Assembly (NCBI GenBank): GCA_963850465.1 | Contig: CAWKLN010000020.1 | Coordinates: 20,538-84,537 of the forward strand | DNA: 64,000 nt | Direction: 5' to 3' | DNA from: an uncultured delta proteobacterium | GTDB lineage: Bacteria > Desulfobacterota > Desulfobacteria > Desulfobacterales > UBA5852 | Shown: piece after piece, positions 9,917 to 34,385 of the stretch | How positions within the stretch are numbered: the first letter of the stretch is position 1 | How the letters are laid out: each line of letters begins with the position of its first letter | Notes under the pieces: generated by a model | What the model was told of the DNA's origin: nothing | Database searches by the model: none | What the model saw: the letters and a program-made list of their open reading frames with translations, nothing else | Position numbers and translations under genes: made by a program

Positions 9917-11014
9917 TCACCCCAAGACCGCGTTGAAAAGAAAGCCCACAAAAAGAATGCCCGTGGCCACGACGGCAATGAAAATAGCGATCAAGCGGGG
10001 TTTGAGGACCTTGCGCAGGATCACCATTTCCGGCAGGGACAGCGCAATCACCGACATCATGAAGGCCAGGGTCGACCCCAGGGCCGCCCCTTTGCCCAGC
10101 AGGGCCTCCACCACCGGAATGATGCCGGCGGCGTTGGAATACATGGGCACCCCCAGAATCACCGCCAGGGGAACGGACCACCAATCGCCCTTGCCCATGA
10201 CGGAGGCCATGAAGCCTTCCGGTACGAAGCCGTGAATCCCGGCACCGACGGCGATGCCCAGCAGGACGTACATCCACACCCGGCCGAAGATCTCCACCAC
10301 GGCATCCTTGCCGTACACCAGGCGGTCCCACAGGGTCAGGCGGTTTTCCACCGGGCTGTCCCCCACCGCGGTCATCTGCTGCACCCAGTCTTCGACATGG
10401 TGCTCCAATTTCAGGCGGCCGATCACCCAGCCGGCACCGATGGCGATACTCAACCCGGTCGCGGCATACAGGGTCGCCACCTGCCAGCCCACCAGCCCGT
10501 AAAGCAGACCCAGAGCGATTTCGTTGACCATGGGGGCTGCGATCAGGAAGGAGAAGGTCACGCCCAGGGGGACGCCCGCCGTCACGAACCCGATAAACAG
10601 CGGCACCGCCGAACACGAGCAGAACGGGGTGACAATGCCCAGCAGGGCGGCCAGCACGTTGCCGGCCAAGAGGCTGCGGCCGGCCAGCAGCGCCCGGGTG
10701 CGCTCGGGGGAAAAATAGCTGCGGATGACGCCCACGCCGAACACCACCAGCACCAGGAGCATCATCACTTTGGGCGTGTCGTAGAGAAAGAACTCCACCG
10801 AGGCCCCCAGGTGCGAGCCCGGCGTGAACGGCAGCAGGCGGTAGGTGAGCAATCGTGAAAACGCCGCCAGATGCGTGTAGACCAGCCACCAGAGGGCCAT
10901 CCCCAGAGGGGCGGCCAGCAGCAGCATCCAGGTCGGCCGGGAGTGATTCGTCTCAGCCGTCCCGGCAGGCCGCACCTGGCAGGCGCAAGACGTTTCTTCC
11001 ATCGGTTTTAACAT
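9917..11014 (-). CDS. arsP: COG0701/UPF0718 permease, ArsP-like (putative organoarsenical efflux permease)
   Basis: A multi-TM protein with the TPFCSCSAVPLF motif. It sits between the thioredoxin-like gene and acr3. Confidence 0.75.
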   Translation of the reverse strand: MLKPMEETSCACQVRPAGTAETNHSRPTWMLLLAAPLGMALWWLVYTHLAAFSRLLTYRLLPFTPGSHLGASVEFFLYDTPKVMMLLVLVVFGVGVIRSYFSPERTRALLAGRSLLAGNVLAALLGIVTPFCSCSAVPLFIGFVTAGVPLGVTFSFLIAAPMVNEIALGLLYGLVGWQVATLYAATGLSIAIGAGWVIGRLKLEHHVEDWVQQMTAVGDSPVENRLTLWDRLVYGKDAVVEIFGRVWMYVLLGIAVGAGIHGFVPEGFMASVMGKGDWWSVPLAVILGVPMYSNAAGIIPVVEALLGKGAALGSTLAFMMSVIALSLPEMVILRKVLKPRLIAIFIAVVATGILFVGFLFNAVLG

Positions 11015-11070
11015 GGCAACACCTTATTATCAGCCCCCTTTAATACCTTGGGGGAATCGATTCACATCAT

Positions 11071-11301
11071 TTACTTCAGCCAGCCGGCAATCTCGTCTTT
11101 TTTAGGAATCTTGCCGGTGGATTTGATTTCGCCGTCCACCATCACGGCCGGTGTGGACACCACACCGTAGCCGGCGATCTGCATCATGTCGGTCACCTTT
11201 TCCACACGGGCATCGACGCCGGTGTCCGCCACCACCGCCTGCACCAGCTTGGCGGTTTTTTCACAGCGTGCACACCCGGGACCCAAAATCTTGATTTCCA
11301 T
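11071..11301 (-). CDS. Thioredoxin-like small redox protein (MTH895/ArsE-type)
   Basis: 76 aa, MEIKILGPGCARCEK with a CxxC motif. This family is commonly found in ars operons. Confidence 0.85.
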   Translation of the reverse strand: MEIKILGPGCARCEKTAKLVQAVVADTGVDARVEKVTDMMQIAGYGVVSTPAVMVDGEIKSTGKIPKKDEIAGWLK

Positions 11302-11401
11302 CGTGTCTGCTCCTTAGAGAGTAGGGTCGCAACATCACAATTTCTCACCGGACGCATCCCTGCGCCCGCTACCATATTACCATTATTACATATATTGTCG
11401 G

Positions 11402-11749
11402 TTATGAACGGCGGCACAAATCCTCGCGATTCACGAAGGGCAATTGGGCCACCGCACGGCGGATGTCCGGATCGTCCTCCAGCCAGTGCCGCAAATTCCC
11501 CAGCAGGCTGGCCACATAGGGGCTGCTGCTGCCGTCCGATGGCGCGTAATTGACCCACAGGCCGTCCTTGCATGAAGTTACGATACCCGCATCTTCAAGT
11601 ATTTTCAGATGTTTGGATACGGTGGGCTGGGCCAGCCCGAGAACGCCCTGCAGTTCGCAGACGCACATGGTGCGGCGTTGCAGCAATTTGACGATCTTGA
11701 CCCGGTTGGCATCGGCCAGGGCCTTCATGACGCGGGTAAAATGTTTCAT
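11402..11749 (-). CDS. arsR: ArsR/SmtB-family metalloregulator
   Basis: LADANRVKIVKLL...CVCEL...LAQPTVSKHLKIL is the winged-HTH signature with the CVC metal site. Confidence 0.9.
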   Translation of the reverse strand: MKHFTRVMKALADANRVKIVKLLQRRTMCVCELQGVLGLAQPTVSKHLKILEDAGIVTSCKDGLWVNYAPSDGSSSPYVASLLGNLRHWLEDDPDIRRAVAQLPFVNREDLCRRS

Positions 11750-11775: not shown

Positions 11776-11868
11776 GTGATACAGCGCATGCGGTTGTCAA
11801 CCCCGATCCGGTCGGGAGTCTTAATTCACCTGCACCGCGTCCGCCACCCGGCGGACATCCGCCAGGCA

Positions 11869-12024
11869 TCAGGTGCCCCGGGGATGTTTCTCCCGGCACC
11901 GGCATTGGCCCATCGCCTTGGCCGCCTTTATTTCCGCCAGAATCCGGCTGGTGCCGTGCCGGCGCACATCGTCGATGATATCCTGTTCGGTATGGTTGAA
12001 GCAGTAGCAGATCCGTCGCGACAT
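11869..12024 (-). CDS. Small BFD-like (2Fe-2S)-binding-domain-like protein (51 aa)
   Basis: My own translation is MSRRICYCFNHTEQDIIDDVRRHGTSRILAEIKAAKAMGQCRCREKHPRGT. The CxC...CxC spacing resembles the BFD-like [2Fe-2S] domain. The ORF is below the ORF-track cut-off. Confidence 0.45.
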   Translation of the reverse strand: MSRRICYCFNHTEQDIIDDVRRHGTSRILAEIKAAKAMGQCRCREKHPRGT

Positions 12025-31158: not shown

Positions 31159-32553
31159 GTGACAGGACATCCGGCCTTGAGACCCTCTCTCCAGCAAATC
31201 ACCCTGGCGGTAACCACACTGACCGGGTTCATGGGCCCCTTCCTGATTTCGTCGGTCAACATCGCGTTGCCGGATATTCAACGGGCCTTCGGCGTGGACG
31301 TCGTGCTGCTCAGCTGGATTGCCACCGCCTATCTGTTGTCCGTCGCCGCCGTCCTGGTACCGGCCGGAAAAATTGCCGACCATTGGGGCCGGACCCGTAT
31401 CTTTGCTCTGGGGCTGGCCATTCTGACCATCGCCTCGACAGGCTCGGCGCTGGCCCCTTCCATAAGCATTCTCATCGCCACTCGGATTTTTCAAGGGATG
31501 GGCGCCGCCATGGTGGTCACCACCGGAATGCCTATTTTGATAGCTGTATTCCCGCCCGCAAAACGTGGTCGCGTCATCGGTCTGTATGTTGCGGCGGTAT
31601 ATCTGGGGCTCTCCATCGGGCCTCTGGCAGGCGGCCTGCTGACCCAACACGGCAGCTGGCGTCTCATCTTCGTTGCGGTTGTGCCGCTGAACGTCCTGGC
31701 CCTTTTCCTGACGCTGCGCTATCTTCCCCGCGAGCCCGTGGCGACCGCAAGGCCGCCCTTCGACATCCTGGGAACGCTGCTTTACGCCATCTCGCTGGTC
31801 ATGGTCGTTTACGGTGCTTCGCGCCTGCCGGCAATCATGGCCTGGGGGCTCATCGGGGGCGGTGCGGCGGGTCTTCTAAGTTTCGTGTTCTGGGAACTGC
31901 GCGTCCCCCATCCTGTTTTCGAAGTCCGCCTTTTTGCAACCAACCGGGTCTTTGCATTTTCCAGCCTGGCCGCCCTGATCAATTACAGCGCGACCTTTGC
32001 CGTCACCTTTCTGCTGAGCCTTTATCTTCAATATGTCCAAAGCTTTCCCCCCCAAAGCGCCGGACTGGTTCTGATGGCCCAACCCATTGTCCAAGCATTG
32101 TTTTCGCCACTTGCCGGCCGCCTGTCCGATCGCGTCGAACCCGCTATCCTGGCCTCCTTCGGCATGGCAATCACGGCCGCCGGCTTGCTGGCGCTGACCG
32201 TGCTGGCACAAACCACCTCACTGGCCTATATCTTAGGTGTACTAATCGCCCTGGGCATGGGTTTCGCGCTTTTTTCCGCCCCCAACATGAACGCCATCAT
32301 GGGTGCCATCGACCCACGACACTACGGGACGGCCTCCGGCGTCGTTGCCACCATGCGCCTGTTGGGTCAGATGACCAGCATGGCCATGGCGACATTGGTG
32401 TTCGCGCTGATCATCGGCCCCCGTGAAATCGTACCCGCCCTTTACCCGCGTTTTTTAACAAGCGTTCGTATTTGTTTTATTATATCCGCGTGTCTGTGTC
32501 TCTCAGGCATCTTTTTTTCGGTGTATCGCGGTCGCTTGCGGCACGTCCCCTGA
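31159..32553 (+). CDS. MFS transporter (14-TM DHA2/EmrB-like)
   Basis: 464 aa, highly hydrophobic, with the motif-A-like GKIADHWGRTRIF. The start is GTG. Confidence 0.9.
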   Translation: MTGHPALRPSLQQITLAVTTLTGFMGPFLISSVNIALPDIQRAFGVDVVLLSWIATAYLLSVAAVLVPAGKIADHWGRTRIFALGLAILTIASTGSALAPSISILIATRIFQGMGAAMVVTTGMPILIAVFPPAKRGRVIGLYVAAVYLGLSIGPLAGGLLTQHGSWRLIFVAVVPLNVLALFLTLRYLPREPVATARPPFDILGTLLYAISLVMVVYGASRLPAIMAWGLIGGGAAGLLSFVFWELRVPHPVFEVRLFATNRVFAFSSLAALINYSATFAVTFLLSLYLQYVQSFPPQSAGLVLMAQPIVQALFSPLAGRLSDRVEPAILASFGMAITAAGLLALTVLAQTTSLAYILGVLIALGMGFALFSAPNMNAIMGAIDPRHYGTASGVVATMRLLGQMTSMAMATLVFALIIGPREIVPALYPRFLTSVRICFIISACLCLSGIFFSVYRGRLRHVP

Positions 32554-32755: not shown

Positions 32756-32792
32756 GAGCCGGGAAGTTGCCCGCTTCCCGGCTCTTTCTTTA
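32756..32792 (+). terminator. Second terminator-like hairpin about 70 nt after the first
   Basis: GAGCCGGGAAG-ttgcccg-CTTCCCGGCTC is an 11-bp stem, followed by TTTCTTTAT. Confidence 0.45.
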
Positions 32793-32913
32793 TCCGCTGC
32801 CGCCCCCTATGGACATATTTGACCTCTTCGATAGAAAAGATTAGCATGGAAAAATAATTTTTCTTTGCAGAGGCCGGATACCTTTGTGGATCAAACGACA
32901 ACAAGGAGATACC

Positions 32914-33117
32914 ATGAACGACACCATCGTGATCTATGGCAAGGACAGGTGACCCTATACGCAGCGGGCCAGGGAGGCCCACAAGGACCATATCTATATC
33001 GATGTCCAGCACGACCCGGATCAGATGGCGGAGATGCTTCGATTTTCAGAAGGACAGCGCAAAGTGCCCGTCATCGTCTCCGGCAGCTCGGTGCAAGTCG
33101 GCTATAACGGTGCCTGA
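32914..33117 (+). CDS. Glutaredoxin-like protein with an in-frame TGA (32950-32952) at the first active-site Cys position; candidate selenoprotein (67 aa)
   Basis: An AAGGAG sits 5 nt before the ATG. My own translation is MNDTIVIYGKDR-TGA-PYTQRAREAHKDHIYIDVQHDPDQMAEMLRFSEGQRKVPVIVSGSSVQVGYNGA. This aligns by eye with the glutaredoxin pattern (IxIYxKxxCPYC...VPxIF), placing the TGA at the first Cys. The ORF track misses it because of the TGA. Confidence 0.65.
32966..32980 (+). promoter_or_regulatory. GC hairpin 13 nt downstream of the in-frame TGA; SECIS-like candidate
   Basis: GGGCC-AGGGA-GGCCC is a 5-bp all-GC stem with a G-containing 5-nt loop. The stem starts 16 nt from the U of the UGA. 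Confidence 0.35.
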
Positions 33118-33392
33118 CGAATATAGCCGTCGGCCGTGTGCCGACAATTATAATTGCCGTCTTGGGTGACCCCACGGTGGCCGATGGATGCGACTATCTC
33201 CGCCATCCGTCTCCGTGGGCCAGCATCCTTGCCGGTGGTTTCGACAAAGAAAAATTCTTCGACTTCGTGAGGCCCCTCTCGCACGACTTAATGTAGCGGG
33301 TCGGAACAGGACGAATATCTTCTATGGCCCTCCGGAGATGGCGTCAGAAGCGCCTCGTCCGCGCCACCCTTCAAGTAAAGAGCGCTAATGTC

Positions 33393-34385
33393 ATGAAAGC
33401 GATCGTTGTCCATACCGACAAGAGTACCATCGATTTATCATGGGAAGAAATTCCAGGGGTTTCGCCCGGCCCGGATGACGTCCTGCTGGACATCCACGCC
33501 ACCGCCGTCAACCGTGCGGATCTGCTGCAGGCGCGTGGACTTTACCCCGCCCCCCCGGGGGATTCCCCCATTCTCGGTCTTGAAGTGGCCGGGCAAATTC
33601 AGGCGGTGGGTACCGCTGTCGAAGCCTGGGTTCCGGGGGACCGCGTCTGTGCCCTGGCGCTCGGCGGGGGATACGCCGAGCAGATCGTCTTGCCGCAGGG
33701 GCTGCTGATCCCCCTGCCCGACCAGTGGTCTTATGTACAGGGGGCCGCCGTTCCCGAAGTCTGGCTGACGGCCTACACCAACCTCTGCTTGGAAGGATCG
33801 ATGCAGGCCGGTGAGACGGTCTTGATTCACGCCGGTGCCAGTGGTGTCGGTACGGCGGCAATTCAACTCGGCCGGGAATTGGGCGCCCGGATCGCCGTCA
33901 CGGCAGGATCCGACGAAAAGCTGGCCCGCTGCCGGGAACTCGGCGCCGCGATAACAATTAATTATAGAACGGACAATTTCGGCGAAGCCATCATGTCCCT
34001 CACAGACAATCAGGGGGTCGATCTGATCTTAGATTGTATCGGCGGGCCTTATCTGGAGCAGAATCTCTCGATACTTAAACCCTACGGCCGCCTGATCACG
34101 ATCGGCGTCATGGGCGGAACCCAAGCCCCTCTGGATATGGCGGCCGTTCTTATGAAAAGTCTGACGCTGAAAGGGACACGATTGCGAGCACGATCGCGGG
34201 AAGCAAAAGCACAGATCACCCGACAATTCCGGGATCGCATCTGGCCTCTCTTGGTAGCCGGCAAAATCGCCCCTGTGGTGGATCGTGTTTTCCCCATTAC
34301 CTCCGCTGGCAGCGCCCACCAGTACCTAAAGGACAATCGCAATATCGGCAAGGTGGTTCTCGAGGTAGGCCCGGGAATCCGATAA
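33393..34385 (+). CDS. qor: NAD(P)H:quinone oxidoreductase (zeta-crystallin/PIG3-type MDR)
   Basis: AVNRADLLQARGLYPAPPG, ILGLEVAG and VLIHAGASGVGTAAIQL. The likely start is the ATG at 33393. Confidence 0.85.
   Translation: MKAIVVHTDKSTIDLSWEEIPGVSPGPDDVLLDIHATAVNRADLLQARGLYPAPPGDSPILGLEVAGQIQAVGTAVEAWVPGDRVCALALGGGYAEQIVLPQGLLIPLPDQWSYVQGAAVPEVWLTAYTNLCLEGSMQAGETVLIHAGASGVGTAAIQLGRELGARIAVTAGSDEKLARCRELGAAITINYRTDNFGEAIMSLTDNQGVDLILDCIGGPYLEQNLSILKPYGRLITIGVMGGTQAPLDMAAVLMKSLTLKGTRLRARSREAKAQITRQFRDRIWPLLVAGKIAPVVDRVFPITSAGSAHQYLKDNRNIGKVVLEVGPGIR

What the first reader, a model, noticed from the sequence alone, without database searches (positions are those of the whole stretch)
32914..33117. 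Candidate selenoprotein: glutaredoxin-like ORF with TGA at the first active-site Cys position and a downstream SECIS-like hairpin
A well-placed AAGGAG and ATG open a 67-codon frame that reads as a typical small glutaredoxin. It has beta-1 IVIYGK, then the active site, then ...YIDV...EMLRFSEGQRKVPVIV...VGYNGA. The codon where CPYC/CPYT-type glutaredoxins have their first Cys is TGA (32950-32952), giving U-P-Y-T. Sixteen nucleotides downstream begins a GC hairpin, GGGCC-AGGGA-GGCCC, with G residues in the loop. That is in the position range where bacterial SECIS elements sit. Cys-to-Sec replacement in thiol-oxidoreductase folds is well established, especially in Deltaproteobacteria. ORF finders split or miss this gene, and the ORF track shows only off-frame ORFs here.
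Basis: partly seen in the sequence, partly recalled or inferred. Interest (0 to 1): 0.7.

Follow-up and report, generated by a model that had tools for sequence, protein, structure and literature searches.

The report
Two-selenocysteine glutaredoxin-like gene, known family
This is a real small glutaredoxin-like selenoprotein gene, but it has two selenocysteine codons, not one, because the supposed stop codon is the second, and it belongs to a family that is already catalogued, so it is a sound but ordinary find.

Summary
An RBS and ATG at 32914 open a glutaredoxin-like frame with TGA at 32950-52, where relatives have the active-site Cys, followed by the hairpin GGGCC-AGGGA-GGCCC.

The frame continues U-R-I-TAG (true end 33126), with a second SECIS-like hairpin (33129-45) just past the stop.

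Read this way, the 70-aa protein matches NCBIfam NF041114, "UXX-star selenoprotein family 1", end to end (102 bits, cutoff 72). A 2026 review lists that family with motif UxxT and two Sec.

Family-wide evidence:
- Over 120 metagenome loci carry TGA at the active site, and 115 of 123 also show TGA-x-x-stop.
- Seventeen relatives with Cys at the active site, and about five with Cys in the tail, give Cys/Sec pairs at both positions.
- Hairpin 1 shows compensatory changes at wobble positions.
- Hairpin 2 has a fixed UGA-to-loop spacing (15-24 nt in 98%) and G-containing loops in 120 of 121.

No selA, selB, selD or tRNA-Sec lies in the window. A second TGA-containing known-type selenoprotein gene (11821-12024, minus strand) suggests the genome decodes Sec.

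Verdict: genuine, a new member of a known kind, biochemical function untested.

The parts
32756..32784 (+). Intrinsic-terminator-like hairpin (12-bp stem plus T-run) that ends the upstream MFS transporter gene and separates it from the selenoprotein gene
   Evidence: the MFS assignment comes
32819..32847 (+). Sigma-70-like promoter candidate, TTGACC-17 nt-TAGCAT. The same motif is seen in the homologous locus L001.
   Evidence: consensus match only; L001 sequence
32903..32908 (+). Shine-Dalgarno AAGGAG, 5 nt before the ATG
32914..33126 (+). Complete coding sequence: 70 codons plus the TAG stop. It encodes a UXX-star family 1 glutaredoxin-like protein with Sec at residues 13 and 68.
   Evidence: (NF041114, 102.2 bits, profile 1-70/70); dN/dS 0.09-0.36
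32950..32952 (+). TGA-1, the Sec codon at the first active-site position (U-P-Y-T). It aligns with Cys in CP[YF]T relatives.
32966..32980 (+). SECIS-like hairpin 1, inside the coding sequence: 5-bp stem GGGCC/GGCCC, loop AGGGA, loop starting 18 nt after the UGA
   Evidence: covariation; Sec-type against Cys-type
33115..33117 (+). TGA-2, the Sec codon three codons before the true stop (U-R-I-stop). This is the family's defining UXX-star feature.
33124..33126 (+). True stop codon, TAG
33129..33145 (+). SECIS-like hairpin 2, wholly in the 3' UTR: 6-bp stem GTCGGC/GCCGAC, loop CGUGU, loop starting 17 nt after the UGA

Best explanation
The locus 32914-33126 (+) encodes a 70-residue glutaredoxin-fold protein of the UXX-star selenoprotein family 1 (NCBIfam NF041114). 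Both in-frame UGA codons are decoded as selenocysteine by the bacterial SelB pathway.

Each UGA has its own SECIS hairpin at the standard distance. The first hairpin lies inside the coding sequence. The second lies just past the real stop codon, because only two sense codons follow the tail UGA.

The product is a minimal beta-alpha-beta-alpha-beta-beta thioredoxin-type fold. Sec13 sits at the N-terminal cap of helix 1, in the motif U-P-Y-T, so there is no second active-site Cys. Sec68 sits on a short flexible C-terminal tail that replaces the last helix of classical glutaredoxins.

Inferred, not shown: the tail Sec acts as the resolving partner of the active-site Sec. The two would form a reversible intramolecular diselenide, or a selenenylsulfide in relatives with Cys at the active site. 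This would parallel the way the GG-Cys residue resolves the active-site Cys in monothiol Grx5, and the way the GCUG tail works in thioredoxin reductase. Joint metal or metalloid binding, as the literature suggests for this family, is the alternative chemistry.

Shown here: family membership, the fold, Cys/Sec pairs at both positions, conservation of both hairpins, and purifying selection on the whole frame. Not shown: actual Sec insertion, the presence of the Sec machinery in this genome, and the redox or metal chemistry.
For: Family and fold:
- NF041114 scores 95.6 bits for the 67-aa reading and 102.2 bits, profile 1-70/70, when read through TGA-2. The cutoff is 72.
- Pfam Glutaredoxin is passed.
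- A PDB profile search aligns CP[YF]T onto the CPYC of Grx3, other Grx and NrdH.
- The AF2 model has pLDDT 83.6, topology b-a-b-a-b-b and a coil tail. The nearest solved folds are Grx, NrdH and mycoredoxin, with TM 0.66-0.76.

TGA-1:
- Three close homologues (76-85% identity) keep it.
- At least 120 metagenome loci have V-I-Y-G-K-x-x-TGA-P-[YF]-T.
- Seventeen relatives from named genomes have Cys there.

TGA-2:
- All 17 Cys-type relatives and 115 of 123 Sec-type loci show TGA-x-x-stop.
- Rare representatives end in C-x-x (P0021 ...GTCGV, P0083, P0101, P0145, P0148), which gives Cys/Sec pairs in the tail as well.
- Tail codons 69 and 70 change only synonymously within the clade.

SECIS 1:
- 86.3% of cells are paired, against 77.7% in shuffles and 22-54% in slid controls.
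- There are 44 double-sided changes against 10.6 expected, reached by 0 of 500 shuffles. Pairs 39-51 and 42-48 covary at wobble positions.
- Sec-type sequences average 4.26 of 5 pairs, Cys-type 2.71 of 5, p = 6e-6.

SECIS 2:
- The UGA-to-loop distance is 15-24 nt in 98% of 121 loci, against 29% in shuffles.
- G occupies loop position 1 or 2 in 120 of 121.
- Mean energy is -11.2 against -6.0 kcal/mol in shuffles.
- Only 3 of 120 are followed by a T-run, and 115 of 120 start after the stop codon.

This genome:
- TGA is the ordinary stop of 20 of 33 Pfam-supported ORFs, so the genetic code is standard.
- dN/dS is 0.09-0.36 across the frame.
- A second known-type TGA-containing gene with a strong SECIS-like hairpin lies at 11821-12024 (-).

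Literature: the review PMC13188914 lists the family with motif UxxT and 2 Sec.
Against: - No selA, selB, selD or tRNA-Sec is in the window, so Sec decoding in this particular genome is inferred and not shown.
- No Rfam family matches either hairpin.
- On the single sequence, neither hairpin region folds significantly better than shuffles (z = -0.36 and -0.98).
- In hairpin 1, two of the five pairs are fixed by two conserved Ala codons (GCN...GCN). The Cys-type relatives closest to the Sec-types (L003, L019) still form the hairpin, so part of the signal comes from amino-acid constraint and shared ancestry.
- The shuffle control does not correct for relatedness of the sequences.
- The diselenide mechanism is inferred from topology only. 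No model coordinates were available to measure the distance between residues 13 and 68.
- No conserved gene neighbourhood points to a substrate.
Confidence: 0.88

Rival explanations
1. One reading: a single-Sec protein. Only TGA-1 is Sec. The TGA at 33115-17 is the genuine stop, and the hairpin after it is an ordinary terminator or a chance structure.
For: TGA is the commonest stop codon in the window, used by 20 of 33 ORFs. The consensus scan flags 33129-33145 as terminator-like because of the AATTATAATT tail. Most database gene calls of relatives end at this codon.
Against: - The family profile extends through C-R-I, and the score rises by 6.6 bits to full-length coverage.
- TGA followed by exactly two sense codons and a stop is present in all 17 Cys-type and 115 of 123 Sec-type loci.
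- Rare relatives have Cys at this position followed by two residues and a stop.
- The two tail codons vary only synonymously.
- The hairpin sits at a fixed distance from this UGA with G-containing loops in 120 of 121 loci, and only 3 of 120 have a T-run.
Confidence: 0.06
2. Not a selenoprotein in this organism. The gene is a decaying pseudogene, or TGA-1 is a true stop and only a short downstream peptide (for example from ATG 33025) or nothing is made, because the genome lacks Sec machinery.
For: No sel genes or tRNA-Sec are in the 64-kb window. Gene callers produce only a 30-aa in-frame fragment.
Against: - dN/dS of 0.09-0.36 over all 70 codons, against relatives 76-85% identical, includes synonymous changes upstream of TGA-1.
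- The RBS, ATG, both TGAs and both hairpins are intact and conserved in four syntenic relatives.
- A second, unrelated TGA-containing gene of a known selenoprotein type with a strong SECIS-like hairpin lies 21 kb away.
Confidence: 0.04
3. TGA is read as a standard amino acid (Trp or Gly) under an alternative genetic code, as the JGI translations with W at both positions imply.
For: P0001, P0002 and about 15 cluster representatives are deposited with W at these codons.
Against: - Twenty of 33 Pfam-supported ORFs in the window terminate at TGA with full-length domain matches, so TGA is a stop here.
- The two positions align with Cys, not Trp, in homologues.
- SECIS-like hairpins follow specifically these UGAs.
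Confidence: 0.01

Closest known systems
UXX-star selenoprotein family 1 (NCBIfam NF041114), listed as 'Distant Grx-like protein 1' in the prokaryotic selenoproteome review PMC13188914
   Same: The HMM match is full-length and above the cutoff. The protein is a glutaredoxin-like fold of about 70 aa with a U/C-P-[YF]-T active site, Sec three residues before the stop, and two Sec in total. The SECIS for the tail Sec lies beyond the stop codon.
   Different: Only sub-clade details differ. The tail is N-G-A-U-R-I instead of the predominant G-G-T-U-G-V; R-I occurs in 5 of 106 unique genes. The gene sits in a lineage-specific MFS / Grx-like / MDR-dehydrogenase arrangement.
Sec-containing glutaredoxin of Clostridium (Alkaliphilus) oremlandii, motif UxxC (Kim et al. 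2011, cited in PMC13188914)
   Same: Glutaredoxin fold with Sec at the first active-site position, and a bacterial SECIS inside the coding sequence.
   Different: The second active-site residue here is Thr, not Cys. The C-terminal helix is missing. There is a second Sec on a C-terminal tail. The protein scores far below the cutoffs of the classical Grx models (TIGR02181, 31 bits against 90).
'-star' C-terminal selenoproteins and tail-Sec enzymes: SaoC and KCU-star (Haft & Gwadz, bioRxiv 10.1101/2022.07.06.499078) and the thioredoxin reductase GCUG tail (own knowledge)
   Same: Sec lies at or next to the C-terminus on a flexible tail, and the SECIS lies after the real stop codon. For SaoC, a 7-bp stem with a GGU loop is described.
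   Different: The protein folds are unrelated. TrxR uses the eukaryotic 3'-UTR SECIS with SBP2. Here the tail Sec is paired with a second Sec in a Grx active site.
Monothiol glutaredoxin Grx5 with its GG-Cys resolving cysteine (own knowledge, not tested here)
   Same: The active site lacks the second Cys, and there is an extra redox-active residue just after the conserved Gly-Gly turn following beta-4.
   Different: The resolving residue here is Sec and lies 2-3 residues further along a tail that ends the protein. There is no CGFS motif and no Fe-S or glutathione evidence.
E. coli fdhF-type bacterial SECIS (bSECISearch model of Zhang & Gladyshev, as described in PMC13188914 and PMC2398784)
   Same: The hairpins start 11-13 nt after the UGA. 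The apical loop starts 17-18 nt after the UGA and has G in loop position 2.
   Different: The stems are short (5-6 bp) and there is no evident bulged U. One of the two elements is entirely untranslated.

Membership tests
[quoted passage not shown] | Whole-protein HMM score at or above the curated cutoff (72 bits), with end-to-end coverage | tested here: met
   102.2 bits, residues 5-70 onto profile 1-70/70. It is the best-scoring NCBIfam model, ahead of the subfamily model NF041212 (73.4 bits against 66).
[quoted passage not shown] | TGA followed by exactly two sense codons and then a stop (U-X-X-star) | tested here: met
   TGA-CGA-ATA-TAG at 33115-33126. The same layout occurs in all 17 Cys-type and 115 of 123 Sec-type relatives.
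[quoted passage not shown] | Glutaredoxin/thioredoxin fold with a U/C-x-x-T motif at the N-terminal cap of helix 1 (the review lists 'UxxT, 2 Sec') | tested here: met
   U-P-Y-T at residues 13-16. Support comes from Pfam Glutaredoxin, the PDB alignment to the CPYC of Grx3, the AF2 topology, Foldseek neighbours and the review table.
[quoted passage not shown] | SECIS-compatible hairpin after each Sec codon | tested here: met
   Hairpin 1 shows covariation. Hairpin 2 shows conserved position and loop statistics. Both lie in the top 1.1% of all TGA triplets in the window.
[quoted passage not shown] | Selenium actually incorporated at both positions | not testable with these tools
   This needs 75Se labelling or mass spectrometry.
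Any bacterial selenoprotein | The host genome encodes selA, selB, selC (tRNA-Sec) and selD | tested here: inconclusive
   None was found in the 64-kb window (ARAGORN; Pfam scan of 40 large ORFs). The rest of the genome is not available. Indirect support comes from a second TGA-containing selenoprotein-type gene at 11821-12024 (-).
Classical dithiol glutaredoxin (Grx1/Grx3, CPYC; TIGR02181) | C-P-Y-C active site, a C-terminal helix after the GG motif, and a score at or above the cutoff | tested here: not met
   31.2 bits against a cutoff of 90. The fourth motif residue is Thr. The protein ends 7 residues after beta-4 with no helix 3.
NrdH-redoxin (TIGR02194 / NF007657) | Score at or above the cutoff, a CxxC motif, and the nrdHIEF context | tested here: not met
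   17-18 bits against cutoffs of 86-131. The neighbours are an MFS transporter and an MDR dehydrogenase.
Rfam-curated SECIS families | Covariance-model hit at the gathering score | tested here: not met
   There was no hit at the gathering score in the window. At E<=10 in 32800-33300 the only hit was a spurious 17.5-bit sRNA match. Short bacterial SECIS hairpins may simply have no model among the curated families, so this test carries little weight.

The most novel reading that the evidence does not exclude
Sec13 and Sec68 form a reversible intramolecular diselenide in a 70-residue minimal glutaredoxin fold. That would make this a natural bacterial diselenide redox protein with a very low potential. 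Alternatively, the two selenols act as a pincer that binds a metal or metalloid. In either case the family would carry out a chemistry that no characterised glutaredoxin performs. No member has been studied experimentally, and the family has no conserved gene neighbourhood to hint at a partner.
Probability: 0.35. Interest if true: 0.55.

Novelty: new member of a known kind. Interest (0 to 1): 0.3.

Why it matters
For annotation: this is a gene that standard ORF finders break. They produce a 12-codon stub, a 30-55-aa fragment, or a protein lacking its last three residues. The correct model has two recoded UGAs and a SECIS in the 3' UTR.

It is a compact natural case of two Sec insertions in 70 codons.

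In most members there are two UGAs only 9 nt apart, where the first is read as Sec and the second as stop. That makes it a neat system for studying how SECIS spacing decides the fate of a UGA.

None of this is new in kind. The family, its UxxT motif and its two Sec residues are already in NCBIfam and in a 2026 review.

Tried and rejected
- Rfam. No match at the gathering score over the whole window. In 32800-33300 at E<=10 the only hit was a chance 17.5-bit match to a Burkholderia sRNA model with a gathering score of 80.
- Single-sequence folding z-scores. Neither hairpin region was significant, so comparative evidence was needed.
Its automatic pattern admitted only Cys or Trp codons at the active site, so it could not find TGA variants in named genomes and could not identify the window's organism. 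It did yield the Cys-type controls.
- Overall folding energy after the active-site codon. It does not separate Sec-type from Cys-type genes, because GC-rich Cys-type genes fold anyway. Only the register-specific pairing does.
- Gene-neighbourhood clustering over about 123 loci. No family-wide conserved neighbour emerged; the largest cluster covers 15 loci. The MFS and MDR-dehydrogenase neighbours are conserved only in the window's own clade.
- Pfam scan of 40 large ORFs for SelA, SelB and SelD. None was found.
- Structure prediction of the Cys-substituted window protein. I used P0002 instead, which has W at both Sec positions. No coordinates are returned, so the distance between residues 13 and 68 could not be measured.
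- Primary literature. The paper on UXX-star families (Haft & Tolstoy 2025, mSystems) is not held. The GOS and Olavius papers that the review's reference list gives as refs 61 and 60 do not describe a UxxT two-Sec Grx-like protein in their main text. The literature statement therefore rests on the review's table.
- Other high-scoring TGA-plus-hairpin sites in the window (for example 25052-, 35034+, 5752-, 2830-, 27157+). Their frames are stop-ridden, or the TGA is a normal gene end, so they were dismissed.

Full report
**1. What is in the sequence**

Positions 32903-32908 read AAGGAG, and an ATG follows at 32914. The frame reads MNDTIVIYGKDR-TGA-PYTQRAREAHKDHIYIDVQHDPDQMAEMLRFSEGQRKVPVIVSGSSVQVGYNGA-TGA. 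The first TGA is at 32950-52 and the second at 33115-17.

Standard ORF listing shows only a 30-aa in-frame fragment (33025-33117) and off-frame ORFs.

With Cys in place of the first TGA, the protein passes the Pfam Glutaredoxin threshold (33.8 bits against 22.9).

**2. The supposed stop is a second Sec codon**

NCBIfam gave an above-cutoff hit to NF041114, "UXX-star selenoprotein family 1" (95.6 bits, cutoff 72). The name describes Sec followed by two residues and a stop.

The sequence after the second TGA is CGA ATA TAG. Reading through it (C-R-I as a stand-in) extends the match to the whole profile, 1-70/70, and raises the score to 102.2 bits.

Directly after the TAG lies a second hairpin, GTCGGC/CGUGU/GCCGAC, at 33129-33145. 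The gene is therefore 32914-33126, 70 codons, with Sec at residues 13 and 68.

**3. Homologues give Cys/Sec pairs at both positions**

The word-indexed protein search found eight relatives. The two closest, at 85% and 76% identity, were deposited with W at both positions. Their DNA shows TGA in frame at both places, the same U-R-I-stop ending and the same two hairpins.

The reference-genome scan returned 17 relatives with TGT/TGC at the active site. They come from Desulfotomaculaceae, Pelotomaculum, Syntrophales, Thermodesulfobacteriaceae, Acidobacteriota and Anaeromyxobacter. All 17 end in GG[T/S/V]-TGA-x-x-stop. All of those tested score above the NF041114 cutoff.

Counting the window, L001 and L002 as well, 115 of 123 loci carry both TGAs and the U-x-x-stop ending, which gives 106 unique genes. 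Six of the other eight are cut by contig ends.

The exhaustive search of 1.84 billion cluster representatives found 752 relatives. Among the best 150:
- 86 stop at the tail codon.
- 15 are read through with W.
- About 35 are N-terminally truncated fragments of the kind a caller makes when TGA-1 interrupts the frame.
- About five end in a genuine C-x-x (for example P0021 ...GTCGV).

The tail position therefore also has Cys/Sec pairs.

**4. The two hairpins**

Hairpin 1 lies in coding sequence in a fixed register, so 101 distinct sequences align without gaps (A2). For its five pairs:
- 86.3% of cells are paired, against 77.7% in column shuffles and 22-54% when the partners are slid.
- There are 44 cells with changes on both sides, against 10.6 expected (0 of 500 shuffles reach this).
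- The covariation score is 0.303 against 0.143.
- Pair 42-48 (CG 78, UA 16) joins two codon wobble positions. In pair 39-51 (GC 60, CG 12, AU 7, GU 7, UA 2) at least the Ala-codon wobble position is involved.

Sec-type genes keep 4.26 of the 5 pairs on average and Cys-type genes 2.71 (p = 6e-6). The Cys-type genes nearest the Sec-types still have the hairpin, and overall folding energy does not differ.

For hairpin 2, across 121 loci with very different stem sequences:
- The best local hairpin has its loop 15-24 nt after the UGA in 98% of loci (29% in shuffles).
- The stem is 6-7 bp in most loci.
- G occupies loop position 1 or 2 in 120 of 121, and GUC and GGUC loops predominate.
- Mean energy is -11.2 against -6.0 kcal/mol in shuffles.

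Only 3 of 120 are followed by a T-run, and 115 of 120 start after the true stop. They are therefore not terminators, and they lie in the 3' UTR.

In the window, the two loops start 18 and 17 nt after their UGAs. Only 1.1% of all 2,187 TGA triplets in the window have a hairpin as good. This geometry matches the bacterial SECIS description used by the selenoprotein-prediction literature (PMC13188914; PMC2398784, methods).

Rfam has no matching model.

**5. Is the gene alive in this genome?**

TGA is the normal stop of 20 of 33 Pfam-supported ORFs, so the code is standard.

Within the window's own clade (window, L001, L002, L043, L045) the MFS / Grx-like / MDR-dehydrogenase order is conserved. 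dN/dS over the 70 codons is 0.09-0.36. Synonymous changes occur upstream of TGA-1. The two tail codons change only synonymously (CGA/CGG, ATA/ATT).

The gene has its own signals. A strong terminator closes the upstream MFS gene at 32756-84, and a promoter-like TTGACC-17-TAGCAT lies at 32819-47.

The window holds no tRNA and no SelA, SelB or SelD domain among 40 large ORFs.

Indirect support comes from a second gene found in passing at 11821-12024 (-). It encodes a 67-codon BFD/CopZ-N-terminal-like [2Fe-2S] protein with an in-frame TGA in a G-T-U-C motif. NCBIfam alignments run across that TGA. An 8-bp hairpin with a GGGU loop starts 19 nt downstream. The review lists "GxUC" for exactly this selenoprotein type.

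**6. Fold and likely mechanism**

The AF2 model was built on P0002, which has W at both Sec positions, because the Cys-substituted window sequence was not admissible. It is confident (pLDDT 83.6, pTM 0.72). The elements are E5-9, H14-22, E26-30, H35-44, E53-56 and E59-62, followed by a lower-confidence coil at 63-70.

Residue 13 sits at the N-terminal cap of helix 1, the canonical thioredoxin-fold active site. The nearest solved structures are glutaredoxins, NrdH and mycoredoxin. The sequence profile aligns CP[YF]T with the CPYC of Grx3, and also aligns the cis-Pro VP motif.

The protein lacks the second active-site Cys (Thr instead) and lacks helix 3. In place of helix 3 it has a Gly-rich tail that carries Sec68.

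From established glutaredoxin and thioredoxin-reductase chemistry (my own knowledge: Grx5's GG-Cys resolving cysteine and TrxR's GCUG tail), the most likely mechanism is that Sec68 resolves the adduct formed at Sec13, giving an intramolecular diselenide. This step is inferred, not shown.

The review instead suggests metal binding or unknown substrates for the family.

Gene context gives no family-wide clue.

**7. Comparison with what is known, and verdict**

The gene meets every sequence-level defining feature of NF041114. [quoted passage not shown] The concept of "-star" selenoproteins with a SECIS after the stop is described by Haft & Gwadz for SaoC and KCU-star.

The window's gene is thus a new member of a known kind. 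It belongs to a minor sub-clade with an N-G-A-U-R-I tail (5 of 106 unique genes).

Interest is modest. The call is correct, it is useful for annotation, and the family has no experimentally known function. A specialist would not be surprised.

Noticed in passing
window 11821-12024 (-), TGA at 11871-11869: A second candidate selenoprotein gene: MSRRICYCFNHTEQDIIDDVRRHGTSRILAEIKAAKAMGQCRCREKHPRGT-U-CLADVRRVADAVQVN. It is BFD/CopZ-N-terminal-like [2Fe-2S], with a G-x-U-C motif as listed in the review for '(2Fe-2S)-binding protein, CopZ family, form 1'. An 8-bp hairpin with a GGGU loop starts 19 nt after the UGA (-14.4 kcal/mol). NCBIfam partial matches (41-45 bits, below the cutoffs of the longer models) run across the TGA.
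   Followed up: partly
window 9917-11749 (-): Downstream of that gene, on the same strand, lie an ArsR-type HTH regulator (11402-11749), a 76-aa thioredoxin-like CxxC protein (11071-11301) and an ArsP_1 permease (9917-11014). This is a small redox or metalloid-type cluster headed by the candidate selenoprotein.
   Followed up: partly
L021-L140 (family-wide); in the window the true stop is TAG, 33124-26: In 64 of 106 unique double-Sec genes the real stop after U-x-x is itself TGA. Two UGAs 9 nt apart then have opposite fates, presumably decided by their distance to the single hairpin.
   Followed up: partly
window 32959-32982 and alignment A2, columns 31-54: Sec-type genes almost always encode x-x-A-R-[E/S]-A-[Y/F/H] after U-P-Y-T, whereas many Cys-type genes read A-A-R-D-D-Y. 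The SECIS appears to constrain the protein sequence: two Ala codons form the core of the stem.
   Followed up: partly
P0001, P0002 and about 15 of the 150 best cluster representatives (e.g. P0014, P0019, P0030): Public gene calls translate these TGAs as W, and some run on into the 3' UTR. About 35 other entries are N-terminally truncated fragments of 42-56 aa. These are database artefacts of unrecognised Sec codons.
   Followed up: yes
window 33129-33145: The tail SECIS hairpin is also flagged as terminator-like in this window because of the AATTATAATT that follows it. Family-wide, only 3 of 120 such hairpins have a T-run, so a terminator role is unlikely, but it is not excluded for this clade. 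The next gene starts about 250 nt downstream.
   Followed up: partly
L113 and L077: Two odd family members. In L113 the frame continues after the tail TGA (U-R-S-E-D-F...) with no stop at +3. L077 has a frameshift or stop in mid-gene. These may be sequencing errors, pseudogenes or a longer-tail variant.
   Followed up: no
window 33393-34385 (+) and 31159-32553 (+): The MDR/zinc-type dehydrogenase downstream and the MFS transporter upstream are syntenic with the selenoprotein gene in the four closest metagenome relatives. A distant MDR homologue (33% identity) also lies near the gene in an unrelated clade (L064, L080, L100).
   Followed up: partly
window 33077-33260 (+): A weak Rfam match to the Burkholderia sRNA model Bp1_781 (17.5 bits against a gathering score of 80, E = 0.024). 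Part of it is driven by the tail hairpin. I judged it a chance match.
   Followed up: yes
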